DNA of 64,000 nt. Origin: Emiliania huxleyi CCMP1516. Lineage: Eukaryota. The position numbers and the translations under genes are program-made. Below are positions 2,901 to 35,765 of this stretch, one piece after another; position 1 is the first letter of the stretch, and every line of letters begins with the position of its first letter. The stretch spans positions 128,521 through 192,520 of the forward strand of contig NW_005201392.1 of NCBI RefSeq assembly GCF_000372725.1. The letters are read 5' to 3'. The notes under the pieces are model-generated. The model searched no databases, was not told the DNA's origin, and was given only the letters and a program-made list of their open reading frames with translations.

Positions 2901-3440
2901 GGTGGAGGAGCGGCACTTCCACGCTGCGCTCGGCAAGCACAAGAAGGACGCGCCGTGCCTGACCCCGTCACTGCGGCCTCGTTTTTTTTTCGACGCGGGC
3001 TTCTGTCTGTAGGACTTTCGCGCGGTGCATGACGCCGTCACTGCCGCATTTTTTTTCTTTTTTACGCGGGCTTCTGTCTGTAGGACTTGCGCGCGGTGCA
3101 TGACGCCGTCAGGACAAAGAACATGGCGTCGGTGGTGCGGCTCTACTACCTCGAGAATGGCCTCAAGAAGAAGGAGGAGCGCGAGAAGGCGCGCGACGTG
3201 CGGCGCCGCTCAAAAAGCCTTGCGTCTGGCTTTCCTCAAGAAGAAGGAGGAGCGCGAGAAGGCGCGCGACGTGCGGCGCCGCTCAAAAAGCCTTGCGTCT
3301 GGCTTTCCTTTTGAGGGGGGGGCTGTTCTTAGGCGGCCGACGTGCAGCCGCTCACGCCGCCGCGCGGGTTTCTTTTTTCACGCGGCTGTCGTGTGTTAGG
3401 CGCGCGACGTGCAGCTGCTCAAGGAGGCGCGCTCGCGTGA
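2901..3440 (+). pseudogene. SANT/Myb-domain gene fragment with internal duplications
   Basis: Spliced reading VEERHFHAALGKHKK-DFRAVHDAVRTKNMASVVRLYYLENGLKKKEEREK-ARDVQLLKE resembles SANT domains (F..AL..H.KDF..V...V.TK....VV..YY). No 5' exon found; blocks are duplicated (e.g. 3165-3310). Confidence 0.5.
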
Positions 3441-3611
3441 GGCGGCGGCGGCGCGGGAGCCTAGAAGCGGAACATCTCCCCGTATCTCCCCATATCTCCC
3501 CGTATCTCGTGCCCTAGAAGCGGAACATCTCCCTTCCCCCGTATCTCCCCGTATCTGGCAGCACGGAGCCTAGAAGCGGAGTACACACGTACGTGTGTTC
3601 CAACTGGCGCT

Positions 3612-3757
3612 ACTGGCGGGGGATAGGGGGAGATAGGGGGAGATAGGGGGAGATAGGGGGAGATAGGGGAGATAGGGGGAGATAATGCACACAGGGGGCG
3701 CTACTGGCGGGGGATAGGGGGAGATAGGGGGAGATAGGGGGAGATAATGCACACAGG
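3612..3757. repeat. (gggggagata)n 10-nt minisatellite within a duplicated block
   Basis: Seen directly. The complementary motif atatctcccc also occurs at ~2870 and ~3475-3555. Confidence 0.85.
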
Positions 3758-4729
3758 GACCGGGGGGCGACGGGAACACCAAAGACGAGAGAGACAGACT
3801 TGTCCTGTCTCTCTGTTCCGTAGGCGCGAGAGCACCCGCGGCCCGCCATACCTGTGAACGGCGTCTCTTCACACCTCGGGCTGTGAATTCTTGTGACATG
3901 GCAGGCCACTCTCAAGCCCTACCAGCATCAGATCACCCATTTGGGGAGGGTTGACATCGTGATTTCCGCGGAAAATTTCTTTTTCTGCTGTGAAAATGGG
4001 AGGGCCCAGACCTACCCTACCTACCCCGTCATCAGGTCCGCCCAAGCAAAAAAAGTACACACCTGACCTCTCAGCTCAAAGGGGAATTTATTTGTTTGGG
4101 CAGTGTTCGACCGGGCTAGCTACTTGCCAGCGCCCGTCTTTGTTTTAGTAGTTAGTCTTGCGGGGTTGCCCTTGGCCGTTCGGCTGATTTATAAGATCCG
4201 CGAGACCTCGAGAGAGTAGTGCCGAAGGCGCTCTTTTTGATCGAGGCAGGGCGTTCGGCTGGCTTCCCTGTGTACTTCGCCACAGGTCCAACCCTCGCCT
4301 TTCCCGTTCCGCTCGCGCTTGCCCCGCCGCGTCGACGCACATATGGCCGCGGGGAGCTGCACGCCCGAGCGGCGCGACGCCTCCTGCTCACGCAACCCGC
4401 CGCTCCCTCTCCGCTCCCACCATGCGATGCGCTTCGATTTGGCGCCCGAGCGGCTACGCCCCCCTCGGCCTCACAATCCCTGCCACCTCCCGTTCGCAGG
4501 TGAGGCTGCTGCCATCGGGGAGCCGCGAGACGCGGCCGCTGCCACTCGTTCCCCACCCTTCCACCGAGCGAACCCGCCCGATTGCCCCCACTCTTTTCCG
4601 GCGAGAGAGCGACGCAGCCCGCTCGCTTGCCAATCGCTGCCCGGCTCCAGTCCTAGCGCCGAGGACACGAGAGAGTGTGCCGGTCGTCGCGATGCTAACG
4701 CCGAGGCGTGCTGCCCGTAGGTGTGGCAG

Positions 4730-5445
4730 TGACCTGGCTCGACCCTCTCTCTCTCTCTCTCTCTTTGAGCATGGCCTCTGCCATAGCAAACCACCACGCG
4801 TCACGGTCGATTTCTTTTTGTCTGTGGAGGCGAGGCTCGAAGGGGAGGGGAGGGCGTGGGGGGGGGGAGGGGGGGGGGGACTGGGGGGGGGAGTGACCTG
4901 GGTCGACCCTCTCTCTCTCTCTCTCTTTGAGCATCGCCTCTGCCTTCATTAGCAAACCACCACGCGTGACGGGCGATTTCTTTTTGTCTGTGTAGGCCAA
5001 GCTCCAAAGGGAAGGAGGGGAAGGCCTGGGGGGGGGGGGGGGGGGTTACTCGGGGGGGAGGAAACCGGGTTGAACCCCCCTTTTTTTTTTTTGGGAAGGG
5101 CTTTGGCTTTTTTTAGAAAACACCCCGGGGGGGGGGGGGGAATTTTTTTTTGCTTTGGTGGGGAAGCCTCTAATGGAGGTTGAAGCCTTTGGGGGCTTGG
5201 GGGGAATGGGTTGGGGGGGAGANNNNNNNNNNNNNNNNNNNNNNNNNNNNNNNNNNNNNNNNNNNNNNNNNNNNNNNNNNNNNNNNNNNNNNNNNNNNNN
5301 NNNNNNNNNNNNNNNNNNNNNNTCATTAGCAAACCACCACGGGTCGCGCGGTCGATTTCTTTTTGTCTGTGTAGGCGAGGCTCGAAGGGGAGGGGAGGGC
5401 GTGGGGGGGGTGGGGGGGAGGGGGTGGGGGGGGAGGAGGGGGGGC
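4730..5445. repeat. ~150-165 bp tandem unit ((CT)n, agcaaaccaccacg, G-runs), about 3 copies, broken by a gap
   Basis: Units start at ~4730 and ~4894, with a partial third from 5323. Confidence 0.75.
5223..5322. other. Assembly gap (100 N), preceded by low-quality homopolymer-rich sequence
   Basis: Run of n characters. Confidence 0.99.
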
Positions 5446-12200: not shown

Positions 12201-15200
12201 GTCGTGCGGCGGCGGCGCCGCGCGTCCGACGCAGTGCGCGGCGGGCACGATCGCGCCGGCCGAGCGGATGGAGGCATGCGACAAGTGCGCGGGCGGGACC
12301 TACCAGAACGACACGGGCGCGACATCCTGTCGCGCTTGCGAGGCGGGCAGCTACTGCGCCGAGGGCGCGTCGGCGCCGCTGCCTTGCGTTGCGGGCAGCT
12401 ACTCGAACGCGACCAACCTCTCCGACGCGAGCGAGTGCACCGACGCCTCGCCGGGCTACTTCGCCACCACCGGCTCCACGCAGCAGACGGCGTGCGACAA
12501 GGGGTCGTACACGGACGCGGCCAAGCAGGGCGAGTGCACGCCCTGTTCCGGCGGCACGTACCAGGACGCGGAGGCGCAGACGGCGTGCAAGCCGTGCGAG
12601 GCGGGCGGCTACTGCGCTGTTGGCGCGGCGGCGGCGCTGCCGTGCGAGGCTGGCAGCTACTCGCGCGCCACCAACCTCTCCGCCGCGAGCGAGTGCACCG
12701 ACGCCTCGCCGGGCCACTTCGCCACCACCGGCTCCACCGAGCAGACGGCGTGCGCCAAGGGGTCGTACACGAACGAGACCAGGCAGGGCGAGTGCACGCC
12801 CTGCGCCGGCGGCACGTACCAGGACGCGGAGGCGCAGATGTCGTGCAAGCCGTGCGAGGCGGGCGGCTACTGCGCTGTTGGCGCGTCGGCGGCGCTGCCG
12901 TGCGAGGCTGGCAGCTACTCGCGCGCCACCAACCTCTCCGCCGCGAGCGAGTGCACCGACGCCTCGCCGGGCCACTTCGCCACCACCGGCTCCACCGAGC
13001 AGACGGCGTGCGCCAAGGGGTCGTACACGAACGAGACCAGGCAGGGCGAGTGCACGCCCTGCGCCGGCGGCACGTACCAGGACATGGGCGGCAAGACGGA
13101 GTGCAAGCCGTGCAAGCAAGGCAGCTTCTGCGAGCCGGGCGCGGCGGCGGCGCTGCCGTGCGAGGCTGGCAGCTACTCGAACAAGACGAATCTTGACTCG
13201 GCGGGCGGCTGCATGGACTGCCCTTTGGGCCACGCTTGCACCACTGGCAGCGCGACTCCCATGGCTTGCCGCGCCGGCACATTCGCATCCGGCTCGCGCA
13301 ACGCCGAGTGCGAGCCGTGCAAGGCGGGATCCTACCAGAACGCCATCGGTGCTGCCGGCTGCGTCCGGTGCGGGCTTGGCAGCTTCTGCCCGGTCGGCGC
13401 GTCGCTCGAACTGCCCGCGGCGTGCGAGCCGGGTACATACGCCAACGTCACGGACGGCGACGGCTTGCCCGACTGTTTCGACTGTCCGGCGGGCTCGTCG
13501 TGCGGCGGCGGGGCTGCGCCGCCGGCGGAGTGCTCGCCGGGCTCCGTCGCCGCCACGCCTGGACTCGCCAAGTGCGAGCGGTGTGAGCCTGGCACATCTT
13601 CCAGCGCCGGCAGCGAGTCGTGCAGCGAGTGCGCTGCAGGCACTTACGCCGCCAACTCCGGCCAGGGCCAGTGCGTCCCTTGCCCCCACCCCCTCAGTAG
13701 TGAGCGCGGCGCCGTCATCTGCTCCATCTGCCAGAAGGGCTTCTACCTGCTCCAGAGCGCCGACCCGGCCGACATCTTCTCCTCCCCGACCGACTACTGC
13801 AAGCCATGCCCGCCAAACGCAGAGTGCTCGGACGACACCTCGCTCGCGACCCTCGGCGTCCCAACCGGCTACTGGCGCGCCAGCCCCTCCTCCGCCGTGC
13901 TGACGGCGTGCCGCGCCTTTGGAGGGGATGGCCAGGCGGGCCAGGCGCGGTGTGTCGGCAATGTTGATCCGGGAGAGGCTAGCGGTCGGAGGGTGCAGGA
14001 GGCCGGCTTGGACTACTGCGCAGACGCCTTCGCCGGCCCCGAGTGCCAGCTCTGCCGCGAGCCGAACCACTACCTGGACGCCGACGGCGCCGCCTGCAAC
14101 GAGTGCGTCGCTGTCGGCACGGCGGCGGGGCGCATGGCGGGCACCGCCCTCGGCCTCTGCGTCGCGTTTGGCCTCGTGGCGTTGGCGTACTCAGTTCAGC
14201 GCGGGCAAACCGAGTGGAGGAAGGAGCGCTTCATCGGACTTCCCTTGCGCATCGCCGACCGCACCGGCGACGCGATTTACAAAATCGGCCTCATCCCCAA
14301 GTTCAAGATCTTGTTTGGCTTCTACCAGGTCTGCCTCGTCCTCTCCACCACCTACTCGGCGCGGCTGCCGGAACGGTACACGGGCTGGACGGAGGCGCTG
14401 GCCGAAGCCGTCTTCATCGACTGGTCGGGCGTCGTGCTGCCGGTGCAGTGCCTGCCGCACAAGTCCCGGCTCGTCGCCGTCGCGATCTCTCCCATCGGCG
14501 TCATCGCACTGCTCCTCTTTGCTGGCATTGTCTTGCGGCTCTGTGCTCGCTGGCGGCGTGCTCGGCGAGGGGCTGCGGAGCCACCGACGGCGCTGGCCGA
14601 AACTGACGATGCGGCGGTCTTTTCATGGCCTGCAGAGGTGGCGCTCGGCCTCCTCGACCTCAGGGGGGGGGGGGTTCGGGGCCAATTCTTTCTTTTCGGC
14701 CCTTTGGGGAGCGCCCCGATTTTGGCCCGGGGGTGTTTCCCGGGTCCTAACCCAAAAAAAAAAAACCCGCCCCCCCCCCCCCCCCCCCAAAACCCTTAGC
14801 TGTCGATGTGCGTGCGCAGGGCTACACCACCTCTGCGCCGGGCGAGACGCTCGCTCTGGTCGAGTACATGCGGCAGGACGCGAGCGTCGAGTGCGGCACC
14901 GACGAGCACGACTCCATCACGAGACTCGCCACCGGCTTCGTCGTCATCTGGCCGGTCGGCTCGCTAGTCCTCTACTCGGCCCTTCTTCTCGCATGCTACA
15001 AGCCGCTGCAGGCCAAGTCGCCGAACGCGCTGACGAAGGCCACCGCCTTCCTTCACCGGGAGTACAAAAGGAACTGGTACTGGTGGGAGGCGGCCGATCT
15101 GGCCCGCAAGCTCTTTCTGACGGGCTTCGTGCTGCTGGTTGCCGAGGAGGAGGACTCCTTTGTTCGTCTCGTCGTGGCGGTGCTCGTGTGTTCGTGCTAC

Positions 15201-17252
15201 GCCGTCGTGATCGCCCTGGTCCAGCCCTACAAGCGGTTCGGGGACAACATCCTCGCCGTGGTGCGCCCTTCGCCCAATCCCACACGCCCTTTGCGCTTGC
15301 TTGTGCTGCAGCTCTCAGCACACGCTTGGATCGTGGCCAGTCCATCACCCACCCCACACACGCCCTTCCCACTGCAGTCACTCTGAGCCCAACGGACGCG
15401 GCTCGCACTGCAGGCCACCAGCCTCGTCCTCCTCCTCCTCTTCCTCGGTGCCAGCTGGACCACCATCTTCCTCAACATCGAGTTGCGATTCCCCGGCGAC
15501 GAGCCGGGGCAGTCGGCCTCCGCCGTCCTCGGCTTCAGGTCTGAGAATGGACTGGTGAACTGGATGCTCGTCCTTGCTGCGGCTGCGCTCCTGATCTTCC
15601 TCGTGGGTACCATCATCGCCATCCGCCGCCTTGCCAAGGTCCCCACGATTCGCCTCGTCTTAACCAAGCAGCCCCCCGAGCTGGCTCTGGTGGAAGGCCT
15701 CACGTGGCACCTCTTCCTCTCGCACATCTGGTCAGTCCTGTGGTCAGAGGGAGAGGCGGCGTAGGAGAACCCGCCAGAACGACCCGCCACTCCGCGAATA
15801 GGTCCACCGGCCAAGACGCCGTCGCGGTCATCAAGAATGAGCTTAAGCTCTTGATCCCCGGCATCAAGATCTTCCTCGATGTGGACGATTTGAAGGACAT
15901 CGGGTCGCTGGAGGATTACGTTGACCGCACGCAGGTCATGCTCTTCTTCCTGTCGAAGGGCTACTTCCGCTCGAAGGCACTCCCCCAGCCCCTCCCTTTC
16001 CGAGAGTGCCTCGCTGTGTCGCCCACGACTACTCGTGCGCTCCTTGCCTGCAGAACTGCCTGCGCGAGATTCGGACGTCGCTCGAGAAGAGCAAGCCGCT
16101 CGTCCTCGTGCAAGAGGCGGATCCGGCCAAGGGCGGCGGGACGCTGCAGGCGCTCCCCGCCCACCCCCAGCTCTGACCCTGCGGGGATTGCTCTCGCCAC
16201 ACACGGCTCTGAGGGGCGGTGTCGCCGCCGCCGCCGCACGCCAGCACTCACTCACGCACACCGTCGCTGCACGACTGCAGGAGTTGCGAGCACAGTGCCC
16301 GGAGGTCCTCCAGCCGGAGATCTTTGACAGTGGGTGGGCGCAGACGACGTGGCACCGCATCGACGAGTATCAGCGTGTCTCGCTTAAGATCATCTCCGAG
16401 GTGCCGCCACGGACAACTCCCTGCAGCTGTTCTGCCGTCGCCTCGACCTTGACCGCCGCCCCCTCGCACCTACCCTCAGGCGCTCCTCCTCTGCTCGCCA
16501 CACTACCTGAACCTGACCTCCCTCCCGCTCTTCATCCCGGGCGAGGTCCAGGGCCAGCCGATCTCCTTCTCCAAGTCCGTCGTGCTCTGGGCCTCGCCGT
16601 TCGATGAGGGCGCAGACGAGCTGGCCAGCGAGCTCGCCACCAATTTCTCCGGCCTCACCGTCTCCACCGCCGAGGAGGCGGGCGACGCCACGCACATGCT
16701 TCTCTATCTGAACGCCGACACCTGGTCCGACGAGCGGCTGGCCGAGCAGGTCAAGCAGGCGCGCCAGGACAGGCTGAAGATCGTCATGGCGCACGAGAAC
16801 GACCTCGACCGCGGCGGCTGTGAGTTCGCCAAGTTTTTTGAGACCACGCCGCAGGAACGCTGCCGATCAGCGGTCGATCTTTTATGTCCCGCCCGCTCCA
16901 TGCCCCCCTTCCCCGCCGCCGCAGGAGCTCATCAACGCCGGGCTCTACGACGCCCTCGCCATTGCCTGCTTCCCCGGCCTGCACCATGAGGTGCGCTCCC
17001 CCGGCGGCACCTTTGCCACAGCGCCCGCCTCCTGAAGCGACTGATCTTGCACCCCCGGTCTCACAGGTGTCGCTCGTGCTGCTGGCCAAGGCTCTGGGCG
17101 CAACCCCGGTGAGCGCTCGCTCGAGCATCCGCGACTCGCTTTCGAATATCGGGCGCTTCACTACCGTGCCTCGCGGCTCGACGACGTCCGACCCAGTCGT
17201 TACCGAGGAGGATTCGCAGCTGGAGCAGCTGCCAGAGGTGGAGCAGGTGTAG
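9297..17252 (+). CDS. Large membrane receptor: CUB-like, right-handed beta-helix, Cys-rich ephrin-receptor-like (GCC2/GCC3) repeats, multi-TM region, TIR domain, second degenerate TIR
   Basis: Exons 9297-9869, 9937-10398, 10493-10576, 10683-10766, 10873-~14660, 14820-15260, 15414-15730, 15802-15976, 16054-16149, 16281-16400, 16480-16854, 16925-16990, 17067-17252. Motifs: SPNYPNSY...CDYLTVNG...GWKICW; CxxCxxGxY repeats; KFKILFGFYQV; FLHREYKRNWYWWE; HLFLSHIWSTGQD...IFLDVDDL...FLSKGYFRSKNCLRE. 14661-14797 is low-quality sequence. Confidence 0.85.
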
Positions 17253-20929: not shown

Positions 20930-21925
20930 GCTGCCCCAAAACGGAAGGGCAATAGCCTGTTCACGGTTGCAGCTCCAACCACGGAAGGCCTCGAGCGCAT
21001 CCGGAGCCCTCCAGGCGGCGCCGAGACTCGCTGGACCTATTGGTGCGAGTGCGCCGTCTGGCTCGGCGTACTCACCGGCCGGTGGGAGCGGATTTTGACC
21101 AAGCTGCTGCACGAGTGGCTCTTGGCGCAGGGCAGCGCCGGTCTCGACACCGACCCATCGGCGCGCCAGCTTGGGGATCCGGTCACGCTCAGCGGCGGCG
21201 CTCTGGCCGCAAAGATCGCCAGCCTGCAGAAGCAAAAGGAGCGTGACTTGCTGACCATGATGACCGACCCGTCTCTCCGCGTTTGGCTCGGCTTCATCGC
21301 GGTCTACGGCGACCAGTCGCTCATCCCGTTCATCAAGGGCTTTACCGAGGACGACTCGCCCGGCATCGGGTTCAAGGCGCGCCGAGTCATCCTCGAGCGA
21401 GTCGCAACGCTGCGCAGGTTTGAGAGCGACGCGCTCGACTGCAAAGAGCTGGACGGGCTGAAGCTGCTGGTCGAGAATACAGACGGCATCGACGCTGAAG
21501 CTGCCGCCGAAATCATTAGCCAGGCGGCCAAGGCCTCCGCCGACTACTTCGAGGAGGAGACGCACCAATGGCACGGCTCTCGCGCCAACCCGGTGCTGCT
21601 CCTGTTCGGCCTGATGGACGAGAGGGGCCGCGCCGTCGAGTGCGCAAAGGAGCTCCTCGCGACGCAGGGGCGCACCTCGATTGCCACCGCAATGCTGCCG
21701 CACATGCCCAAGCACGACAAGCTGAACGCCACCATGCTCGCGGCGGCGATCGGCGACGCCGTGGACGGCCCCTGCGTCGCGTTCCAGGACGAGTTCCTTG
21801 ATCAGATCCGCATCCTCAGCAATTCGCCGGCCATGACCAAGCTGCGCGACCTACCCGCCGCACAGTCGCTCCATCAGCTGCTCTATCGCTGCCTTGCGCA
21901 CGTGAACGGATGTGCAGAGGCACGT
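20930..21925 (+). mobile_element. hAT-like DDE transposase remnant
   Basis: Frame open from 20930 with coding-like codon use. GGAETRWTYW resembles the hAT TRW motif. Helical region ends in HVNGCAE (possible catalytic E). N-terminal part absent. Confidence 0.45.
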
Positions 21926-22216
21926 GGTCTGAGAAAAAACGAAACGCTGCGAGAGAGGAATCCCTGGCCCTGGCCATGGGTGAATTCTTCCCAGCCCCCC
22001 TCCGTGTGTCGCGAGATGCGCTCCCCACACTCCCGTCTCCCGACTCCCGTTCCCCTGTGTCGTGTCCCTGATCGTCCTTCCAAGATCCTGCTCGTGCAGG
22101 TGGGGACCCTGTCCTTCTCCCATCCCTCGTTTGGGTTTGTCTGTTTTCTTTCTTGCTTTCTTTTTACTCCGCTCCACAGCACGCTCGGGCGCCGAGACCA
22201 ACTTCCCGCCACACTC

Positions 22217-25200
22217 TCACTCGAAGCAGAGCGCCAGGTCGGACATGCGGAGCTGGCGCGACGCCTCCTCGTCGGCGCCGGCGGCGTCGTCGAGCAGCCG
22301 CTCCGCGTTGCGCCGCTTGCGCCCCTGCAGCTCGAGCATCTTCTCCTCGACGGTGCCCTGCACGACCAGCCGCACCACCGACACCTCCTCCGGCTGCCCG
22401 ATGCGGTGGACCCGGTTGATGGCCTGCTCCTCGACGGCAGGGTTCCACCTGCGCGAAGCGGTGAGGCGAAGGGGGGGGGGGGGTGCGTGTGTGTGTGTGC
22501 TCACACTCACTCACTCACTCACAGCGACTGGGTGAGGGGGCGAGGGAGCGTGGCGGCGAGGCAGCGTGGCGGCGAGCGCGACGGGTGGCGAGGGAGGCGG
22601 AGGCGCGCGTGACGGGTGGCGGGGGAGGCGGGGGCGAGGGAGGTGGTGAGGTGGGGTGAGGGTGTGTGTGTGTTGTGTGGGGGGGTGCTGGTGAGTGAGG
22701 AGGCGGGGAGGGGTCTTGGCCCCACCACGGGTCGAGGAGGAAGACGCGCCGCGCCGCGGTCAGGTTGAGGCCGACGTTGCCGGCGCGGAGCGAGAGCAGC
22801 ATCACCCGCACGCGCCGGTCCTCCCGGAAGGCGGCGAGCGCCTCTCGCCGCTGGTCCAGGCTCATCGCGCCGACGAGCCGGACCGTGCGCACGCCTAGTC
22901 TCGACACGCACCTCCCGTCTTCCACCTCGGGGACACCTCTCCCCCGCCGCCGCCACCGCGCACGCGCCGAGCTCGCGCTGCACCGCGCGCTCCGCCTATG
23001 GCCCACGGGGAGGAGGGGTGAGACGGCGAGGAGGCGGAGAGGTCGGCAGGGCAAGAGGGCGGGAAGGGGGGGGGGGGGGGACACGCTCGGCAAGTCTCGG
23101 CTAGTCTCGGCTAGTCTCGGGTAGTCTCGGCAAGTCTCGGCAAGTCTCGGCAAGCCTCGGCAAGTCTCGGCAAGTCTCGGCAAGTCTCGGCAAGTCTCGG
23201 CAAGCCTCGGCAAGTCTCCGCCAGGTCAAGCATCCCAACCCACTGCGAGAAGACAACCGCCTTGAGCGGCCGCCGGACATCCCCGCCCCCAGCACCTCCT
23301 CCGCCGCCCCCATCGCCTCCGCCGCCGCCGCCGCCGCCGCCGCACTGATCGGCGAGCGCCTCCTCGCGGAAGTCTGCTCGCAGCTCGGAGAGCAGCGCCT
23401 ACCGAGGTGCAGCCCGAAATCGAGCCGGAGGTCGAGCCGGAGATCGAGCCCGAGATCGGGCCGTAGATCGGGCCGAGGGGCACACGCGTGCGGCGGCGCG
23501 GGCGGCGCCTCAATCTTGGCCGAGGAGCGCCACTCTTCCGTGTCGAGGTCGACGCTGAAGCGCGAGGCGCGCTTGAGCGTGAGCAGCTCCGAGCGGTGAA
23601 TGAGCTGCCGGCAGAGAGGGCACGAGGCGCGGCGCCCCTCGCCAAAGCAGTTCAGGATGCACTCGCGGCAAAACGTGTGCGCGCACTGCGTCGCGACCTA
23701 GTCGCGCCGCCAGCCAGGCTGAGCTCGGCGGGATTCTCGCGGCGGACGGCGGGGCGCGGCGGCCGCTGCGTGCGGACCGGGTCGTCGAGCGGCTCGAGAC
23801 AGACCGGGCACTCGCTTGCCTCCCCCTCCGCGTCGCCCGCGCCCCCGCCGCCCTCGGCGTCGCCCGCCGCCGCGTGCCGCTCCGCGCGCTCGGCGCGCGC
23901 GAGCAGCGCCGCCGCGTGCGCCGACTCGCCAACCTTCTTGGCGACGGCGGCGCGAGAGGCGCCGAGCCCGCCTCGCGACTGCGCCAAGAAGGGGTGGTCG
24001 CACGCCTGCCCGCACGCGGGGGGGGGGGGGGGGGGGGGTTTGAAGGGGGGGGGGGGTCCCCCCCCCCCCCCCCAAAAAATCCCCGGGGGGTCCCCCCCTT
24101 CCCCAACCCCAAAAAAATGTTCAGGACCCAACGGTATTTTTGGAAAAGTTTCCCCTCGGCGACGTAGGCGTCAAACTGCGTCTTGGAGCGCGTGTGCAGC
24201 GCGCGGTAGTAGTCCGCCTCCGCGGCGGAGAACGGGACGCGCACTAGCCGCACCCGCCGCGCCGGCAGCGAGATGATAAGCTCGCCTGCTCACGTCGGGG
24301 GCTGTGAACAGCGTCTCCTCACAGCGTCTCCTCACAGCCCGAGTTGTGAAGAGGCAGCGAGAGGATGCGCTCGCCGTCCGCGTCGGTCGTCTCCTTCGTG
24401 CGGCGCAGCATGAGCGGGCGCAGCGTGCGCTGCAGCAGGGCGAGCCGGCCGGGCCGCGCCATGGCGGCCAACCAGCTCTGCGCAGAGTCTGCGACGCCGG
24501 GCAGCCGCAGAAAGTGGAGCAGCGAGAAGAGCTCGCCGACGGCGTTCTGGACCGGCGTGCCCGTGACAGCCCACCGCCTCTCCGCCTCGAGCGCGAAGAC
24601 GGCGCGCGCCGTCAGGCTAGCGTGCGACTTGACAGCGTGCGCTTCGTCCAAGATCACGCGCCTAGAAGCGGAATACGCCAACCTGAGGGCACGGATACGG
24701 TATTGTGCAGCGTACTCAGAGCACCGCGTGAAGACAGCGGAGAAGCATACAGTGAATGCAGCGGAATACGTGTCCTCTCGAGCGCTAGTTGGAGCACAAG
24801 AATGCGTATTCAGCTGCTAGGATCACGCGCCGCCACGTCGTGCGGTAGAGCGGCGGCGCTATCGGCGGCCCGCCCGTCCTGCGCTGTGCCGCGGCGCCGC
24901 CCCCGGCCCCTCCCCCGGCCGCGGCGGCGCCCCCGGCGCCGCCCCAGCTGCCGGCAGAGCTCCACTCGGAGGCGAGGGTGCCGTAGGAGGTGAGGACGAC
25001 GAGCCGCGAGTCGAGCCGCGGCGGAAGCTCGTCGCGCCTCCCCCCGTGGTACAAGACAAGCTGCAGCCCGCCGCACCCGCCGCGAGAGGTCTCCGTGCAG
25101 CCGGCGCGGAGGTGCAGCTCGTCGGCCCACTGGCCCACGAGCGAGGTCGGGCAGACGATGAGCGTGGCGCCTCCGACGCTCTCCTCTCCAGCGGGCCGCA

Positions 25201-28200
25201 GCACGCCGCACGACGCAACGAGGGATGCCGCGGGCGACGGCTCTCCCCTAAGGTGGCCAGCAGCAGCCGCCGCGCTCTCGCGCCGAGCGGCGTTGGGGTC
25301 GCGCTGCTCGCCGCCGCGCCTCTGGCGCACGTCGCGCCCCGCCGCTGCCGAGCGCGCCTCGCCGCCGCTCGGCCGCCGCCGCTTCGCCTCCCGCCCCTCG
25401 CCGCCCCGCGGGCGCGCGCCTCCCCGCATCAGGGCGCTGAACGCGTCGGCAGGAGGCGGCGCGGGAGACGGCGGCGCGGGCGGCGGCGGCGCGGGCGGCG
25501 GCGCGGGCGGCGGCGCGGGCGGCGGCGCGGGCGGCGGCGCAGCCTCCGCGACGCTCTCTGCCTCTGGCACTCCACGCGTCCGCCCGCCCCCGCCTGCCCC
25601 GCCCTCCCCCTCCGACCTACCCTCCTCCTCCCCCGCAGCCGCCGCCTCCGCCATCTCCACCGTCTCCACTGCCGGAGCCACGGCCGCCTCCCCCGCCTCC
25701 GCCTCGGGCGGCGGCGGCGCGTCTGGCAGCACCTGGCAGGGGTGGGAAGCGAGGGGTGGAGGGGCGGAGGGCCGGAGGGGAGGAGTGGCGCCGCATGGGC
25801 GGGCGGGCCGTGAAGGAAGGGGGCGGGCGGACGGCGAGGGCAGCACCTGCGGAGCTCGCGACGCCCGGTGGAGCAGCCAGCGGTCGTGCAGGATCAGCGC
25901 GATCAGCTGGACTGTCTTGCCGAGCCCCATCGCGTCCGCGAGGATGCCGCCTCTTGCGGCCGTCGCGCCGCTCGGCGGCGAGAGCGAGCCGACGCCGGTG
26001 CGCGGCTATGAGGGAGAGAAGCGGTGAGGGAGGGAGGCAGCGGTGAGGGAGGGAGGCAGCGGTGAGGGAGGCAGCGGTGAGGGAGGGAGGCAGCGGTGAA
26101 AGAGGGAGGCAGCGGTGAGGGAGGGAGGCAGCGGTGAGGGAGGGAGGCAGCGGTGAGGGAGGCGGCAGTGAGAGAGGGAGGCGGCAGTGAGAGAGGGAGG
26201 CAGCGGTGAAAGAGGGAGGCAGCGGTGAAAGAGGGAGGCAGCGGTGAAAGAGGGAGGCAGCGGTGAGGGAGGGAGGCAGCGGTGAGGGAGGGAGGCAGCG
26301 GTGAGGGAGGGAGGCCTCGATGTAGAAGGGCGTGCCGTCCGGGAAGCTGTACTTTAGCCAGCCCGCCTCGCCCGCGTGCGCCAACGCCTCGCGCCTCGCC
26401 ATCCACCACAAGCCTTGCCTCTGGTACGGGTGCAGCGCCACGCGCAGCGTCGGCGGCGGTTCGAGCTCCTCGAGCTCCGCGCTGCTCGCGCTGAGTCCGT
26501 TGTAGATGTCGCCGAGCTCCTCCGCACTCAGCTCCTCTGACGCCAGCCTTGCCGGCGCAGCCACGCCCTCGGCCGCCCCGCTCCTCCCGCCGCCTTCGCC
26601 ACTCCCGCCGCCCCCGCCCCCGCCGCCCCCTCCGCTTGCGCCGCCGCCCCCTCCACTTGCGCCGCCCAAGCTGGCGTCGCCGCCGCTGCTGCTGCCGCCG
26701 CCGCCGCCGCCGCTGCTGCTGCTTGCGGGCGCACCGGCGGCGGCGGCTTTGCTGGCGAGGAGGAAGCCGGCGCGGAGCGGCCCGAGGCGCGCAATCGCCC
26801 GCCGCCGCTCCTCCGCCTCGCGCTCCCCCGCCTCCGCCCGCTGCTTCGCGCGCCGCCGCTCCTCCGCCTCGGCGCGCTTGGCGGCCATCCGCGCGCGCTG
26901 CTCCTCGCTCAGCGAAGGCGTCGGCGCCGCCGCCCTGCCGGACCCCGCCGCCGCCTTGCCGGACGGCGCCCCCGAAGACGCCCCCGTAGCGCGCCGCTCG
27001 AGCGCACGCCGCCGGTTGAGCTCGGCCCTCTGCCGCTGCTCCTCGGTGAGTGCAGCAGCGCCGCGCCCTTCCCCTCCTCCGCCACCGCCACCGCCACCGC
27101 CGCCGCCGCCGCCTTCTCCTCCGCCGCCGCCGCCTTCTCCTCCTTCGCTGCCGCCGCTCGAAGCCGAGGCGTGATCCTCGCTGTCGTGCGCGCCGCTGTC
27201 CGGCATGGGCGCGTCACTCACAGCGTGCGCCCAGCTCGCGTCCGCAGTCTCTCCCTCCGCCGCCTCCCCCGTCTGGCTCGCCTCCGCCTCCGCCTTCCCT
27301 CCCTCCGCCCCCGCAGCCTCCCCTCCCACCTCCGCCCCCGCCGCCTCTCCTGCGGCCTCCGCCCCCGCAGCCTCCCCTGCGGCCTCCTCCGCCGCCTTCG
27401 CTGCCTGCTCCGCCGCCTCTGCAGCCTCCTCCTCCGCCGCCCCCCCGGCCGCCTCCTCTGCCGCCTTCGCTGCCTGCCCCGCTGCTAGAGGCTCCGGCGG
27501 CAACTCCACCGACAAAGACGGCATCGCGGGCGGTGGCGCGCCGCTGCTCGCTGCACTCTCCTCCCCTTCGCCGCCGCTCGGCCCCTCCGCCGCCCCGTCT
27601 CGTTCCGACGCCGCCTCCCGGCCAGCCTCCGCGCCTCCCGCCGCCTCGGCCGCCTCCGCAACGGAGGAGCGCGGCGGCGGCGGCGGCGCGGCGGCGGCGG
27701 CATGCGGGTCCGACAAGAGGCGGTCCGACAAGAGTGGCTCCGACGACTGTGAGTCCGCGGACGGGGTGGCGGCGGAGGGGGCGGGGGCTGGTTCGGCGGC
27801 GTGAGCAGGGGCGGGAGCAGGGGCGAGGGGCATGAGGCCGACCGCTTGCACGAGGGGGCGGACGGCGAGGGGGGCGCCTGCAGGAAGGTTCCGAGAAGGT
27901 TCAGGGGAGAGCCGGTCGCGAGAGGGCGGGCGGAGAAGGGGGCGCCATCGGCTAAGGCCGCGCCGCCGCCCAGCCGCGCCGCCTCGTCGGCTCGCCGCAC
28001 GGCGAGCTCGCCGCCGAAGAGGCCTGCTTTGCGACTCTCGGTCAATCTCGGGTAATCTCGGGTTATCTCGGGAAGCTCTCGCGTAATCTCGCCGCCGAAG
28101 AGGCCCGCGCTGGGGGTGAACTTCACCATGTCACAAATGTCTAGGGCGTGACCTGGGCGGGAGACCGCAGGGAGCACATGTCGTCTCGAGTGCTAGCGGC

Positions 28201-28891
28201 GTCTCCTCCAGAGTCTCCTCCAGAGTGCTACTCGCTCTCCACGGACTGTGTCTGGCGCCGCAACTATCCCACGGTCGCCTCGCTCGGCCCGCAGCTGCAG
28301 CTCGAGAGGCACTGAGCCGCCTGGCACGAGAGTGCACCGGCCTACGCCGACGTGCGCGACCACGTGGAGCGCGGCGGCGCGGAGCGGCGGTAGCAGCGCG
28401 CGCCCGACCGAGAGCGGCAGCCTTCCGATCAGCGGCGCCTCGGCGAGGGGATGCATGCGGTCGGCAGGGTCGCGGCCGGGCCTCCGGAAGCGGACAGCCT
28501 CGTCCGCTCGTCGTGGTTTGGCGGGCCGGCCGCCGCCGCCGGCGGTGGCGGCGGCTGGCGGCGGCGGGAGGACGATCTCGAGCGGCTCTCCCGGGACGAG
28601 CGCCGCCACTTCTCCCTCCCGCACGAGGCTGGTGCCGACGATGGAGCACGAGCCGAGGAGGCGAGGCCAGCCGCCGTCGAAGGCGGGCGCGTCGTTGAGC
28701 GGCGGCGGCTGCGATGGCGGCAGATCCTGCGACGATGCCGGCCGCGGCAGGTCGGGTGGCGAGGAAGTCTGATCCTGCTGACTGAAGAAGGCGTCGACCG
28801 CCGCCTCGAGGGACGAGTGCTGACGCAAGAGGGACGACAGCGCAGCGTCCGACAGGCCGTCGCCGAGAATCAGCCGAAGCTGCGCCTCCAT
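22217..28891 (-). CDS. RAD5: RAD5/HLTF-type SNF2 helicase and RING E3 ligase (UBA-like, HIRAN, SNF2_N, RING, helicase C), many introns
   Basis: GWPRLLGS...VRFR...IGRLP (HIRAN); LHPYQRQGLWWM; GGILADAMGLGKT; TLIVCPTSLVGQW; RRVILDEAH; VTGTPVQN; CPVC...CAHTFCxxC...CPLC; LLSLRAGNVGLNLTAA; WNPAVEEQAINRVHRIGQ. Some 5' exon joins unresolved. Confidence 0.9.
23085..23220. repeat. Intronic (caagtctcgg)n 10-nt minisatellite
   Basis: About 13 copies in a RAD5 intron. Confidence 0.9.
26020..26315. repeat. Intronic 19-nt minisatellite (gagggaggcagcggtgagg)n
   Basis: About 15 copies in a RAD5 intron. It produces the spurious HRCLPPSPL translation. Confidence 0.9.
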
Positions 28892-29265: not shown

Positions 29266-29501
29266 ATAACGCACGGGCCCTCAGCGGAGCTGGGAATAGG
29301 ACCGCCGCAAGCGGCGTGGCGTGGAGCGGTTGCGCATCCCTCCGGGGGCCCCTCTGCGCCGGGGAGGCGTTGTTGGAGGCTAGGACGCAAGCGTCCGTCG
29401 CCCTTTTCAAACTCGGGGCCCACTCCGCTACGCTCCGACCCGAATTTGGAGGGCCTAAAAAGTTTAAGGTGTTGCTGCGCAAAAAGGGGTCGGACACAGG
29501 G
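29266..29501 (+). repeat. Dispersed repeat family A, copy 1 (~235 bp)
   Basis: Direct copy at 46680-46920 and inverted partial copy at 59749-59882. Confidence 0.9.
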
Positions 29502-29658: not shown

Positions 29659-30187
29659 CAGAGCGGTGGTTGAGGCCGATTGCCTCAACTGTCAACCAGC
29701 GGGTTGACAGAGGTCTCAACCATCAACCAAGTGGTTGACAGACCCCTTCAACCTTCAACCCCGCGCAAAGGTCTGAACAGTGAACATTCTCTGTGAACAC
29801 TCATGTCGTCTTCTTTAGATGCTGCATTGGACGTGCCGTTTTTACGAGTACTTGCTTCAGCTACACGTGCGTGGATGGGAGAGGTGTGATGCCAAGCCCA
29901 GACGAGGAACGCTCTGACAAGCCATCCGCGAAGGCCCCCGCACGGGAAGTCCGGGCCGACGTCATGGTCGTCCGGACGCGGCCCTCCGTACACGGAAATA
30001 GCTTACCGCAGACATTTCCAAACGCAAAACTGCTTACCAAAGGCAGATACGAGCTCAGCTCAGTGAAATCTAGCAGCACATACCCTCAGACTCAGTATCC
30101 ATAATAGTTAAGTCTGAAAAAGTCGGTCCGACCGCGCAGAGCGGTCTGGCTGTCTGCAGAGGCCAGAGCTTCCGTCCGGGCCCTGAG
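29659..30187 (+). repeat. Dispersed repeat family C, copy 1 (probable transposon end)
   Basis: Inverted copy at 59017-59570. Starts cagagcggtggttga, with clustered gttga/tcaac hairpins. Confidence 0.85.
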
Positions 30188-31339
30188 AAATGTCGGAGGC
30201 ATGTCGGCCCATGTTCGCGATTTTGATGGCGTTGCCCTCATTGCACGTGAAACAGACCGCGCCGGCCACGCACCCTTGTTCCCGGAGGCCAACTCGAACA
30301 GGTTTGAGCAAAGGCCGCCTTCCATGGACCATGCTCGAAATGCAGCAGGAACTTAGTTGACCCTGCTCGAAGGCCGCCCTGCTCTAAGGCCGCCCTCCCT
30401 GCTCTCGGCATTGCGTTGTTGACTGATAGCACTGTCTGATCCATCCAGAAAGAGCCGTCGAGCTACATGAGACCCAAGTCGTCGTGATGTACCAGAAAAC
30501 GAAACTAGCGCCAAAATTGAGATCTCAGGATCGACATTAATTTCTCGCGCCTACTTTCGCTGCTTGAGGCTCGCCAAATAGGTCCTGCGTCTACTCGAGT
30601 ATGGCCGTGTGCAACGTCACTGTCGTTAACTGCGACAAGACCATCGCGACAAGCGCGACTCTGTTGCTTTATGCGGCAGCATTCAACGTGACTCTTGCCG
30701 TGGATGGTTAGTGACCGCGGTTGCTTACGCAATGCTACACCGTGAGCTGAGCTTCACCAGCCGTTTCTCTTCCTTCCCTTGCCTTCTCTTGCCGTCCGTT
30801 CTCTGTGCGCATTCCACTGCATGCGGCATCACACACGCGTCTTCTGCCGGGCGCGCATCTGAACTCGTACCAGGTAGGGCATCGCTTTGCTGAGAGATGT
30901 GTGTATCGCGCGCCTTGCGGGGGGCGCGCGGAAAAGAGGAACCTCTTAGCGCCCTCGCCATGGTGCTGCAAGCAGCGCCGGGCGACGACGACTTACCGCC
31001 TCCCGGTCCCCCTCGGCACACCTCCGCTGCTCAATGTTTGACGACTCGAACCCGTGAAGCTTCCCCGCGCGCGGGTTACCCCGCACACGGGTCAGCCTGC
31101 CAGCCACAAATCCACGCAAGCGTGGTCCGCGCGCATGGCATACAGGCGTCCGCCAGACAGCGCAGAGGCTAGGCGACCGGGGAAGGACTGCTCAAGGGCA
31201 ACACAGCGTCACCAGCCGTTGGCGCGCAGAACGAGTCAGCGGCCCCCGGTTGGGACGAGTGCGCGATCAGGCGCCTCAAAGACAGTTTTTTAGACGCCGT
31301 TCCCCCGGGGCGTGTTGTTCCTGTTGCGAGCAAACTCAG

Positions 31340-33427
31340 ATGTCGCATCGTTGCGAGGAGCGTCGCTGGCGTGTTGAGCAACGGCGCGCCGAGTACGGAC
31401 GCGAAGAGCGGCGATGGCGGGGCGAGCCGCGACGGCGGTCGCGATCGCGCGATGAGCCGCGGCGGGATGAGCTGCGACGGCGCGACGAGCGTTGGCAAGG
31501 GCACCATGATGGGCGGCATGACGAGCGGCGCGGCTACGACGACTCTTGGTGCAGTGGGCGCGAGCAGCGATGGCACGCTGAGCCACACGCCGCCGAGCGA
31601 TGGCGCGACGAGCCATTGCAAGGCGAGCGACGGCCGCATCATGACGGGCGGCACGTTGAGCGGCGCGGCTGCAACGACCGACCAAGCATAGGCGAGCGCG
31701 AGCGCGACTTGTACGATCGGCGCGATGATCGGTTCTACGATCCCAGGCGCGACCATGACCGGCGCGACCGCCGCGGCGAGGGGCAGCCTCAGCACAGCGA
31801 CCGCCGGTTGAGTCCGCCGATGCGTGGTGCGGGATCGCGCGACGAGAGGCACACCTCTGCTGCCGGAGGTCAGCTCGATGCTAAGCAGCTCAGCGGCCGT
31901 ATCTCGCATGCCAGCGGCGCCGACGAGCTGCTCAGGCTCTTTGCTGCCCACAGCGCGAACTTGAACCACATCCACGCTGCGAACCTGTGGAACAAACTGG
32001 GCAAGCAGCGCATCGAGCGGCGGCACGAGGGGCGGCTTGAGCAGCTGGTGCAGCGCACGCTCGACCTGGTTTCTTCGTGCCGAGCACGCGAGCTGGCCAA
32101 CGTGTCTCACGGCGTTGCAAGGTGCGGCTTGCAGGCGAGGGTGGTGCGCCCGTTGTTCGTAGCGGTGGCGGAGGCGGCGGTGCGTGGCGGGCTGGCTGGC
32201 TTCACGCCTCAAGCCCTGGCCAACACGGTGTGGGCGTATGCGACGGCGGGCGTGGCTGCGGACGCGCTGTACGCGGCGGTGGCGGAGGCGGCGGTGCGCG
32301 GCGGGCTGGCTGGCTTCAACCCTCAGAACCTGGCCAACACGGTGTGGGCGTATGCGACGGCGGGCGTGGCTGCGGACGCGCTGTACGCGGCGGTGGCGGA
32401 GGCGGCGGTGCGCGGCGGGCTGGCTGGCTTCAAGCCGCAGGCCCTGGCCAACACGGTGTGGGCGTATGCGACGGCGGGCGTGGCTGCGGACGCGCTGTAC
32501 GCGGCGGTGGCGGAGGCGGCGGTGCGGAGCGGGCTGGCTGGCTTCAACCCTCAGAACCTGGCCAACACGGTGTGGGCGTATGCGACGGCGGGCGTGGCTG
32601 CGGACGCGCTGTCCTCAGATTGGAGCGCGGCGGCAATCAACAACCGCTCTTACCCCGCATGGTGGGCCACCGGGTGGGGCGTAGCAGAGATGCTGGGCGA
32701 GCCCGACGCTGGCGGCGAGTGTTCCGATCGCGGCAGCGCATGGGCGCCTTCCCACAACGGCTCGGCAGCGGAGTGGGTCAGGCTGGAGTTTGGAGATGAG
32801 CCGTTGCGCATGATTGGCTTGCAGGTGCGCGAGGTGCTGGCTGCGCCGTTCATACTCCGCGTCGAGGTTGAGAGCGAGGAGGCGCAGCGTTGGACAATAT
32901 GGAATGGGACAGATGAGACGCCGTGTCCCGGCTGGTTTGACCTCAGCTACGACAGCGGCAGTCAGGCCATTGCCGCGGTCTACATCTTCACCCAGGCCGA
33001 CGGCTTTGAGGAGATTGATGCCGTTTCGTTGGAAGTGCCCATTCCATGCTCGCCCTCGCCGCCGCCCGAGTCACCCTCAACTCCCCTGCCCGCCTTCGCC
33101 GTGCTCACCGCGCGGCCGCTGGCCGTCGTGCTTGCGCTAGTCGCCGCGTGGCTCCTCCTCTTTGCATACCTCTGCCTGCGGGTGCGGCGACGGAGCCGAT
33201 CTGTAGGGCTGCGCGCTGCAAAGGACTTGGAGGGGCCCACACTCCTCTCGCCACCAGGTCCAGCGGCCGAACGACGGGTGGGCGAGCCGGGAAGCCCGAC
33301 GGACGCCCAAACTATAGGCCCCAGCATTGACTTGGACAGCGCCCTCCGTAGTCATGGGTGCGCTCGCCTTGTGCCTCTCGAGAGAGAGAGTCTGAGAGCT
33401 TGCACACATGCAAGGCCACATTTATAG
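31340..33427 (+). CDS. Chimeric ORF: OPR-like repeat protein N-terminus (4 repeats) fused to an extracellular-type galactose-binding-like domain, PSPPP linker and TM helix
   Basis: 31355-32611 is nearly identical to 39435 onward. Abrupt in-frame switch at 32612 to ...SAWAP...EWVRLEF...EEIDAVSL. No RAP domain. Confidence 0.6.
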   Translation: MSHRCEERRWRVEQRRAEYGREERRWRGEPRRRSRSRDEPRRDELRRRDERWQGHHDGRHDERRGYDDSWCSGREQRWHAEPHAAERWRDEPLQGERRPHHDGRHVERRGCNDRPSIGERERDLYDRRDDRFYDPRRDHDRRDRRGEGQPQHSDRRLSPPMRGAGSRDERHTSAAGGQLDAKQLSGRISHASGADELLRLFAAHSANLNHIHAANLWNKLGKQRIERRHEGRLEQLVQRTLDLVSSCRARELANVSHGVARCGLQARVVRPLFVAVAEAAVRGGLAGFTPQALANTVWAYATAGVAADALYAAVAEAAVRGGLAGFNPQNLANTVWAYATAGVAADALYAAVAEAAVRGGLAGFKPQALANTVWAYATAGVAADALYAAVAEAAVRSGLAGFNPQNLANTVWAYATAGVAADALSSDWSAAAINNRSYPAWWATGWGVAEMLGEPDAGGECSDRGSAWAPSHNGSAAEWVRLEFGDEPLRMIGLQVREVLAAPFILRVEVESEEAQRWTIWNGTDETPCPGWFDLSYDSGSQAIAAVYIFTQADGFEEIDAVSLEVPIPCSPSPPPESPSTPLPAFAVLTARPLAVVLALVAAWLLLFAYLCLRVRRRSRSVGLRAAKDLEGPTLLSPPGPAAERRVGEPGSPTDAQTIGPSIDLDSALRSHGCARLVPLERESLRACTHARPHL

Positions 33428-34192
33428 GCGCTCGACCCCCCTGTCGACCCCCCTGTCGGTGCCGCATCAAGCAACGCGGACGTTGCCGTGACGATCTGGA
33501 GTGTCACCTCTACCCTAGAGGCTACGGTACGGTAAAGGGGGAGGGACCCTGAGTTGAACAGGGGTTGTGCGCCAGGCCCTCCTGCTCGGCTCCAGCGAGT
33601 AGACAAGTATTGTCGTCAACAGAGTAGAAGGATCTGACCTCGGGTCCGATGTGACCAAGCGCTGGTAGCGTGGTTTACCTCACACCCATCCACCCATGGC
33701 TCACAGTGGGGTGCCGGCAGTCGCCGAGCAGTGTAGCTCACACAAGCCGCAGCACAAGTGACTGAGGGCCAGTGAGGGCGAGCCCATCGCTGTCACAGCT
33801 GTGGCAGCCGCACAGTGGGCTGTGCCAACTGTGCAGAGCGTGTGAGCAGCACGGAGGAGCTGCTCTCCCCAGGCTCTTCAGGCGCAAAGAGCTGCATGCC
33901 ACCGAAGGCGCTGTCGAGGTTCGCCGAGCGCGGCGCAGGTTCAGGGAAGCCGCCACCGACGAGCGCGATGGACTTTTCACTCCGGACTTGCTCCTTCCGT
34001 CCCCCGTTGGTACTAGTAGGGAAGGGCAAAGTACAGGGTACAGGCCCCCGGCCCCGCGCGGCCGGAGGTGAGTGTCAGAGCGAACATATATGCAACAAAA
34101 CTCCAAAGTCAAAAACAAAATCTCACCAGCTGTCCAAAGCTCCGGAGGGGGAGGCGACCCCGACGCGGGATGCGGACTTACACTGATATATA

Positions 34193-35765
34193 TCATGCAA
34201 CAGAGTACTCAGCGAGCAGCGAGGCGGTCCACGCGTCGGCCGCCCGTCGCACTCGGCGGCGCGGCTCGCTGAACACCGCACCGCCGTCCACCGAGCCGCC
34301 GGCGCCTGGCGCGCGCGGTGGCTCTCCGCACGCCGCGCACTCCCGCTGCCGCCACTCGCGCCGCACCTCGGCGTGAGGTAAGGTAAGGTGAGGCAAGCGA
34401 GCTGCGGGATGGCCGAGAGAGGGCCGAGAGGTGGCCGAGAGAAGTTGGCCGAGGGATGGCCGAGAGATGGCCGAGAGATGGCCGAGATGTCGAGCCGCGC
34501 CTCGTCGTCGCAGAGCGAGACGAGAAAGTCCCAATCGTCCGCGCCGAAGGCGCGCGCCGCGAAGAGCGGCGGCGCGCTCCGGCAGAGTAACGCCGTCCCC
34601 TCCCTCGCGCTGCGCAGCAGCTCCAGCGCCGCGTGCACCGCGCGGTCGGCGGCCTACGCGCCCAAGGTCCCGGGGTGGGTACTGTTTGCACGGGCTTGCA
34701 TCGCTCTCTTGCTCCTGGAGGGGTGTGGCCAGCAGGCTTGGGGCTCCCATCTCGGCTGCTTCTCGGCTGTTTCTCGGCTGCTTCTCGGCTGTTTCTCGGC
34801 TGCTTCTCGGCTGCTTCTCGGCTGCTTCTCGGCTGTTCTCGGCATGGGGCCGCCTGGCCAGACATCGCCTCGACCGCCTCGACGACCGCCCGGCGGTCGG
34901 ATGCCCTGCCCTTTGCATGGTAGCGAGGGCCGTACAGCGAGCGCGCGCCCAGCTCAACCAGCTCCTCCCGGCTCATGGTGTCGGGCTGCCAGTGGGAGCG
35001 GTACGGGTATGCGATGGCGAGGTCGAGGGCGACGCGGCGCGGGAGCAGCTCACGCGTGTGGAAGGCGAAGAGGTCGCGCGTGCACGAGATGCCCACCGAA
35101 GAGCTCGAGTGGTGGCACGGCTGCAGCGAGATCCAAACCTCGAGCCGGTGGGTGGGCTCCCCGCCCGCCTCCCCGCCCGCCTCCCCGCCCGCCTCCCCGC
35201 CCGCCTCCCCGCCCGCACCAGGGCGGAGGGGCAGCGACCGGATCGCGGCCAGCATTGCGCCGTCCTCCATCATCACTCTCTCCGCATGGTGGCTCTTGTC
35301 CCGATTGTGGTACCGCGCCAGCAGCAGCGGCACCGTCCCCGGCTCGTCTCCCCGGCGCGCGGCGGCGAGGCGTGCCACGATCACCGTGTTGCGCCCCTCG
35401 CACTCGTCCGGGTGGCGGAGGCAGCACAGCGGCAGCGAGCCCTCCGGCGTCTCGCGCACATGGAAGAATGAGTCGCAAAACTCAGCCGCCGACCCGAGCA
35501 GGCTCCCGCCCGGCCGGACGTCGGCGAGCGTTGAAGCGCACGGCCGCGTCAGAGTCATCTGCGTCGCGGCTGGCACACACGGTCCGCGGCCGGTGCGCCT
35601 CGGATCGCCGCCCAAAGGCCGCTGCTGAACACCACTGCCGGCCGAGCGCTGGCCCAGAGACAGCCCGGAGGCGCGCTGCTCCAAAGAAACTGCGACGCCA
35701 CCGCCACCGCCGCCGCCAGGTGCGTCGCCGACGTTGCGCCGTCGGTGCGGAGGCACCCAAGACAT
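34193..35765 (-). CDS. AID/APOBEC-like (APOBEC4-like) zinc-dependent deaminase
   Basis: Exons 35765-34854, 34653-34501, 34366-34193. Motifs: EFCDSFFHV, HHAERVM, WISLQPCHHSSSSVGISC, AYPYRSHW, AREGTALL...DDWDFL. Confidence 0.75.

What the first reader, a model, noticed from the sequence alone, without database searches (positions are those of the whole stretch)
3187..34504. Intron 5' ends repeatedly copy the start of the downstream exon: a candidate intron-birth mechanism
Seen: direct repeats straddle both splice sites of many inferred introns. Examples: 28007-28024/28088-28105 (18/18), 24264-24286/24353-24375 (20/23), 24652-24662/24821-24831 (11/11), 25725-25735/25839-25849 (11/11), 22990-22996/23216-23222 (7/7), 16847-16856/16917-16926 (10/10), 34356-34370/34490-34504 (13/15), 3187-3201/3398-3412 (15/15). 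Several interiors are filled with 10-11 nt minisatellites. Inference: these introns arose by local duplication or templated fill-in at a break, so the donor is simply copied exon sequence (G|GC, G|GT, G|GA). That would also explain the excess of GC donors. The range of divergence suggests an ongoing process.
Basis: partly seen in the sequence, partly recalled or inferred. Interest (0 to 1): 0.85.

Follow-up and report, generated by a model that had tools for sequence, protein, structure and literature searches.

The report
Algal introns born by exon duplication
In this stretch of the bloom-forming alga Emiliania huxleyi, about a quarter of introns begin with a copy of the start of the next exon, likely a scar of their birth when a short piece of gene was duplicated around inserted filler DNA, a variant of a route known from other algae and water fleas.

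Summary
The pattern is real. All 8 repeat pairs exist. The window is Emiliania huxleyi-type DNA. Across 37 curated introns, intron starts match the downstream exon start far above permuted pairs (p=0.0002). Strong copies occur in 9 of 37 introns against 1.1 expected; detectable copies run 4-27 nt. In the RAD5 gene, seven positions are absent from the sister clade, six also from genomic outgroups; these introns carry longer copies than older shared ones (p=0.004). Co-opting a donor from a duplicated target is known from Aureococcus and dinoflagellate introners, and staggered-break introns from Daphnia; E. huxleyi is already listed as having introners. What differs is long, variable duplications around unrelated filler; only 1 of 37 looks like a transposon. 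'Ongoing' was not shown, and GC donors also occur where the exon starts GT. Verdict: new variant of a known kind.

The parts
22215..28891 (-). RAD5/SNF2-RING helicase gene, 12 introns (r1-r12)
   Evidence: open spliced frames; orthologs
28024..28278 (-). intron r1 (255 nt, GC donor); donor is not a copy of the exon start
   Evidence: RNA contig arithmetic, 84 vs 132
   Evidence: RNA arithmetic
25733..25846 (-). candidate intron r4 (114 nt, in frame, no stop): CAG|GT in both copies, 8-nt exact copy
   Evidence: splicing not shown; kept in DNA of X10 and L006
24662..24830 (-). intron r5 (169 nt): 10-nt duplication (24821-24830) gives the GC donor; 159-nt insert with 15/17 terminal inverted repeat ending in CTAG gives the acceptor
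   Evidence: RNA joint X11; same element in L006
24286..24374 (-). intron r6 (89 nt): 19/22 copy; filler resembles a dispersed motif at 3852-3888
   Evidence: RNA contig ends at 24369 where the copies first differ
23399..23508 (-). intron r9 (110 nt): 6/8 copy
22996..23221 (-). intron r10 (226 nt): 6-nt exact copy followed at once by a 10-nt minisatellite (about 13 units)
22895..22967 (-). intron r11 (73 nt): diverged 13-nt copy
22449..22725 (-). intron r12 (277 nt): older position, likely shared with the sister clade; only 4-nt match
   Evidence: RNA joint X15; three ortholog ORFs stop here
14823..17252 (+). 3' part of a TIR-domain/ephrin-like gene with introns t5-t11; t7-t11 shared with paralogs, weak or no copies
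   Evidence: P0066 (96%) spans all 7 junctions; RNA joints for t8 and t9 in 3 runs
34367..34500 (-). candidate intron g2 (134 nt): 9/12 copy then 11-nt minisatellite; GAG acceptor
   Evidence: open frame only
2947..3083 (+). candidate intron d1 (137 nt, GA donor): 24-nt gapped copy; made of two tandem copy+spacer+AG units
   Evidence: open frame only
3189..3399 (+). candidate intron d2 (211 nt): 13-nt exact copy, plus an internal third copy and a 73-nt tandem duplication
   Evidence: open frame only

Best explanation
Many introns here start with a 4-27 nt copy of the downstream exon's first bases, and these introns were likely born when a short exonic stretch was duplicated around inserted filler DNA, probably during repair of a staggered break. 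Shown: the copies, their excess over chance and their one-sidedness; splicing of several introns; absence of RAD5 positions r5-r11 from related proteins. Inferred: (1) the first copy supplies the donor, which this spliceosome accepts as GC, GT or GA with a loose G|GYGCG context common in GC-rich exons; (2) the filler (minisatellite, pieces of dispersed repeats, once an inverted-repeat element) supplies the final AG; (3) only insertions that splice out cleanly survive; the mirror layout would be rarer because copied exon would sit where the pyrimidine tract belongs; (4) copies decay with age and donors can later change between GT and GC; (5) the flanking repeats let whole units re-duplicate (d1, d2). 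I put birth by duplication of some kind at about 0.85; the confidence given is for break repair with mixed filler as the main agent.
For: Score >=8 in 6 of 37 vs 0.25 expected; >=6 in 9 vs 1.1; lengths 4-27 nt, not one fixed size. Donor and exon-start dinucleotides are associated, p=0.008. Sister-clade ORFs P0001/P0019, P0004, P0008 together run through r5-r11, and three stop exactly at r12; outgroup ORFs on 8-46 kb contigs also lack r5, r6, r8-r12. Lineage-specific r5, r6, r8-r11 score higher than shared t7-t11 and r12, p=0.004; p=0.048 using only the three unpicked ones. The r6 intron copy keeps a Leu codon where the exon has Ile and orthologs have Leu or Val. Interiors share no family: of 5 filtered non-local BLAST hits, 2 are a paralog pair and 3 a short dispersed motif. 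Daphnia precedent: 33 repeats of 4-12 bp at new introns (PMC4202315, passages).
Against: No break, polymerase or template was observed. No empty-site allele was seen (15 of 74 joints shown; L006 keeps the introns). About half of the 37 introns show no copy beyond 3 nt. The sample is small, hand-curated and dominated by one gene. Ortholog absence is read from protein ORF ends, not DNA. r5 fits a transposon insertion, so at least one case has another agent. An annotation-free repeat scan gave only a weak peak (10 vs 1-5 at neighbouring offsets for 8-mers, none for 9- and 10-mers).
Confidence: 0.55

Rival explanations
1. Decayed Introner-type DNA transposons: elements carrying a terminal AG insert, the target-site duplication gives the donor, and interiors are later replaced by minisatellites.
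For: r5 has a 10-nt duplication plus 15/17 inverted termini ending in CTAG (12/14 vs 0.15% of null pairs); single arms recur at 3570 and 1593. A carried AG explains the one-sidedness directly. E. huxleyi is listed with 653 introners in 5 families (PMC9860276 supplement rows).
Against: Only 1 of 37 has such termini; CT follows the copy in 3 of 18. Lengths of 22-27 nt exceed the 3-9 bp quoted for introners. A two-arm scan of JGI metagenomes found only the orthologous locus, though E. huxleyi coverage there is unknown.
Confidence: 0.2
2. Target-primed reverse transcription of repeat-tailed RNAs (LINE/SINE-like tails): variable 7-20 nt duplications, with a truncated tail left as the minisatellite.
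For: Variable duplication length. In r10, the nested r1 unit and s3 the array starts right after the copy and the copy's last 3-4 nt equal the unit's end. Units ending in CCGAG recur in r1, r10, g1. TPRT features are recalled, not from a call.
Against: No reverse transcriptase or endonuclease among 16 window ORFs scanned; no parent element found; the longest copies (r2, r6, d1) have no minisatellite next to them.
Confidence: 0.1
3. Old introns whose 5' ends were overwritten by spliced RNA or cDNA during aborted repair.
For: Predicts a one-sided copy of variable length; old r12 has a 4-nt match.
Against: The best copies are at positions absent from relatives, and old shared introns have the weakest copies.
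Confidence: 0.08
4. Chance, donor consensus and annotation bias in 67% GC sequence.
For: Donor consensus G|GYGCG resembles GC-rich exon starts; I placed many junctions by hand.
Against: Permutation keeps the consensus; offset and upstream controls are flat; r2, r5 and r7 come from RNA contigs or an independent allele.
Confidence: 0.05

Closest known systems
Dinoflagellate introner-like elements (Symbiodinium, Polarella; bioRxiv 10.1101/2020.10.14.339549, passages and section 4) and Aureococcus introners as described there
   Same: 5' end of the duplicated target is the donor, the insert's end is the acceptor; GC and GA donors; GH motif at exon starts; later donor conversion toward GC.
   Different: There: fixed 3-8 nt duplications, inverted repeats, families of 100+ copies. 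Here: 4-27 nt copies, 1 of 37 with inverted termini, unrelated interiors.
Staggered double-strand-break introns of Daphnia pulex (PMC4202315, passages)
   Same: Direct repeat of adjacent exon at the intron end, filler of unknown source, nested later events.
   Different: 4-12 bp repeats, AT-rich, 118 of 120 GT-AG, polymorphic alleles known. Here longer, GC-rich, one-sided, GC donors in 20 of 37, polymorphism not seen.
Introners listed for E. huxleyi CCMP1516 and Chrysochromulina (PMC9860276, passages and supplement rows)
   Same: Same species: 653 elements, 5 families, GT and GC donors.
   Different: TSD/TIR scored '?' for 4 families and 'N' for 1; that method needs sequence families, which these introns mostly lack. 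The Chrysochromulina example co-opts the 3' site with a 4-bp TSD, the opposite side. I could not check whether any window intron is in those families.

Membership tests
Introner / ILE (DNA-transposon introns) | Multi-copy family of similar introns at unrelated sites | tested here: inconclusive
   No family within the window; two-arm scan gave only the orthologous locus; no whole genome held.
Introner / ILE (DNA-transposon introns) | Terminal inverted repeats ending at the acceptor | tested here: not met
   Met by r5 only, 1 of 37; mean 7.27 vs null 6.99 of 14. Some published families also lack them.
Introner / ILE (DNA-transposon introns) | Short fixed-length target duplication | tested here: not met
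   Estimated lengths 4-27 nt.
Introner / ILE (DNA-transposon introns) | One splice site co-opted from duplicated exon sequence | tested here: met
Introner / ILE (DNA-transposon introns) | Position absent in relatives | tested here: met
   RAD5 r5-r11, inferred from ORF ends.
Staggered-break (NHEJ/TMEJ) neo-introns | Direct repeat of variable length at one end around non-family filler | tested here: met
Staggered-break (NHEJ/TMEJ) neo-introns | Segregating empty allele with a single copy of the repeat | tested here: inconclusive
   None among joints shown for one DNA run or in L006; a four-run strain comparison was not obtained.
Staggered-break (NHEJ/TMEJ) neo-introns | Dependence on end-joining repair | not testable with these tools
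   Needs induced breaks in culture.
Non-LTR retroelement (TPRT) insertions | Parent element with the same repeat tail | not testable with these tools

The most novel reading that the evidence does not exclude
E. huxleyi builds a large share of its introns without any mobile family: broken or nicked exon ends are extended on the genome's own 10-11 nt minisatellites, leaving exon copy + array + AG. The alga's intronic minisatellites and GC donors would then be by-products of one genome-scale intron factory that is still running.
Probability: 0.15. Interest if true: 0.85.

Novelty: new variant of a known kind. Interest (0 to 1): 0.5.

Why it matters
Where new introns come from is still open outside transposon bursts. 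Family-based introner screens cannot see introns with unique interiors; the junction copy can. If a quarter of E. huxleyi introns carry it genome-wide, this species, with many strains and close relatives sequenced, gives thousands of dateable births, a built-in fossil of the ancestral exon, and a test of whether donor flexibility (GC, GA) is cause or result of intron gain. It also warns gene predictors: the intron start translates like the next exon.

Tried and rejected
No whole genome was held, so no genome-wide test. Single-arm motif in viral contigs: 5 hits, all chance. Minisatellite motifs to fish out host contigs: 0, 0 in viral contigs, 1 unrelated bacterial hit. P0066 in viral contigs: nothing. 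Most joints listed (sides of 20-27 nt in GC-rich low-complexity sequence) were judged spurious and ignored. A strain-to-strain read comparison of 22180-25300 was not obtained, so polymorphism is open. c1 dropped for failing the frame check; r7 left out of the statistics because the window sequence at about 24010-24150 is corrupt. Annotation-free repeat scan was underpowered. PMC2784329 passages held nothing on this. Read et al. 2013 and Huff et al. 2016 were not held; what I say of them is recalled or second-hand. Earlier scan findings: none relevant. P0002-cluster ORFs end near r11 but one codon and one phase away, so I did not count it as shared.

Full report
Setting. The window is 67% GC with many 10-12 nt arrays. 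Paralogs of one of its genes are named EMIHUDRAFT, and an unnamed 96-98% identical protein exists, so this is Emiliania huxleyi or a very close relative. That this species is rich in GC donors and intronic 10-11 nt repeats is recalled from Read et al. 2013, which was not held. No whole genome was available.

Observation. All eight pairs are there as stated. Five lie in a minus-strand RAD5 helicase gene. I annotated 40 introns by hand and checked them by splicing and translating: all but c1 gave open frames. After dropping c1 and two paralogous duplicates, 37 remain: donors GC 20, GT 15, GA 2. Outside support: RNA contigs skip r5 (169 nt), r12 (277 nt), t8 and t9; r1 and r2 follow by arithmetic; protein P0066 spans t5-t11 without insertions; orthologs fix r5-r12. 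The rest depend on open frame.

Two examples are misread. The first copy is internal, preceded by a near-acceptor lacking AG, so a duplication probably extended an existing intron. For 16847/16917 the repeat is on the upstream side.

More than chance. Against permuted intron-exon pairs the exact shared prefix is 3.00 vs 1.53 (p=0.0002). Upstream positions 3-12 show no excess (p=0.33). Sliding the exon removes the signal. Scores of 8 or more occur in 6 of 37 against 0.25 expected, 6 or more in 9 against 1.1, 4 or more in 18 against 5.3. So about 20-35% of introns carry a detectable copy, 4-27 nt long. A wild allele, L006 (97% identical), adds r7, whose donor is unreadable in the window: 5 exact bases, 10 of 14. 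An annotation-free scan was weak.

Age. Three sister-clade ORFs (P0004, P0008, P0019; 60-64% identical, clade support 100/100) all stop at the residue where r12 sits, which marks them as genomic exons sharing r12. Together with P0001 they run through r5-r11. Outgroup ORFs on 8-46 kb contigs also lack r5, r6 and r8-r12. So r5-r11 were most simply gained on the window's branch (0.33 substitutions per site). This is read from proteins, not DNA. In the TIR-domain gene, paralogs at 55-70% identity break or insert at t7-t11, so those positions are older. Young introns carry better copies than old ones (p=0.004; p=0.048 with only the three unpicked young ones). The r6 intron copy keeps Leu where the exon now has Ile and orthologs have Leu or Val. 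Nothing shows the process is current: L006 keeps r3-r6, a DNA contig runs through r4, and no empty allele appeared among the 15 of 74 joints shown.

GC donors. The donor dinucleotide follows the exon start (14 of 20 vs 4 of 17, p=0.008), as co-option predicts. But at t11 all 29 exon-like paralogs continue with Val while most read-throughs continue with Ala, so GC donors also stand where the exon starts GT. Dinoflagellates show the same conversion toward GC.

Agent. r5 is a textbook introner layout: 10-nt duplication giving the donor, 159-nt insert with 15/17 inverted termini whose last AG is the acceptor. It is alone: 1 of 37, and a two-arm scan found only its own ortholog. Other interiors are minisatellites, pyrimidine-rich runs or bits of a dispersed motif. 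In r10, nested r1 and s3 the array abuts the copy and shares its last 3-4 bases, as primed synthesis would leave. d1 and d2 contain re-duplicated units. I therefore favour duplication plus filler at staggered breaks (0.55), then decayed transposons (0.2), repeat-tail retro-insertion (0.1), RNA overwriting (0.08), artefact (0.05). The agent is inferred, not shown.

Known work. Donor from the 5' end of a target duplication, acceptor from the element, GC/GA donors: bioRxiv 10.1101/2020.10.14.339549 (passages and section 4; supplements not seen), PMC9860276 (passages), review PMC11282704 (passages). Huff et al. 2016 was not held. The PMC9860276 supplement lists E. huxleyi with 653 introners in 5 families, TSD '?' in 4 and 'N' in 1 (file cut when stored). 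Daphnia staggered-break introns have 4-12 bp repeats (PMC4202315, passages). E. huxleyi shows no detectable intron conservation with other lineages (PMC3174169, passages), and haptophyte intron gain is called an open question (PMC8379373, passage). PMC12130899 and the Pelagomonas preprint were seen as passages. Nine searches listed no paper describing long one-sided exon copies in E. huxleyi introns; the library lacks most subscription papers, so this is not proof of absence.

Verdict. Real, enriched, tied to lineage-specific introns. It works like introner or staggered-break intron gain but fails the family, inverted-repeat and fixed-length tests for introners except at r5. New variant of a known kind; interest 0.5.

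Noticed in passing
window 3455-3600: Three copies of a 13-16 nt motif, similar to the r5 terminal arm, separated by 10-nt minisatellite: the same copy-filler-copy layout, possibly a further intron of the gene at 2900-3460.
   Followed up: partly
window 890-1044 (minus, intron s2): Intron holds an internal diverged copy of the upstream exon end and donor, after an 11-nt array.
   Followed up: partly
window 24010-24150, 14660-14800, 5040-5320: Low-quality assembly sequence and an N gap inside genes; L006 shows the RAD5 exon continues intact where the window is corrupt.
   Followed up: partly
window 24696-24731: Part of the r5 interior also lies on several other contigs with different flanks in DNA run X10, so the insert is partly made of a dispersed repeat.
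   Followed up: no
window 31330-32612 and 39440-42020: Two copies of a RAP-domain/DUF1601 repeat gene (114-nt unit, 4 and about 11 copies); the first is truncated and runs into unrelated coding sequence.
   Followed up: no
window 20090-20450 and 35880-36200; 29270-29480 and 46680-46920; 2570-2770 and 55890-56120; 29680-30180 and 59030-59570: Dispersed non-coding repeats present twice in the window, seen by eye; high DNA depth at the first pair. No Pfam match for ORFs at 20720-22612.
   Followed up: no
window 10465-10880: 190-nt tandem exon+intron unit, so introns t2-t4 multiplied by intragenic duplication.
   Followed up: partly
P0002 cluster (unnamed marine eukaryote): Its RAD5 ORFs read through into a probable intron starting with Ala, hinting at GC donors in another lineage.
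   Followed up: no
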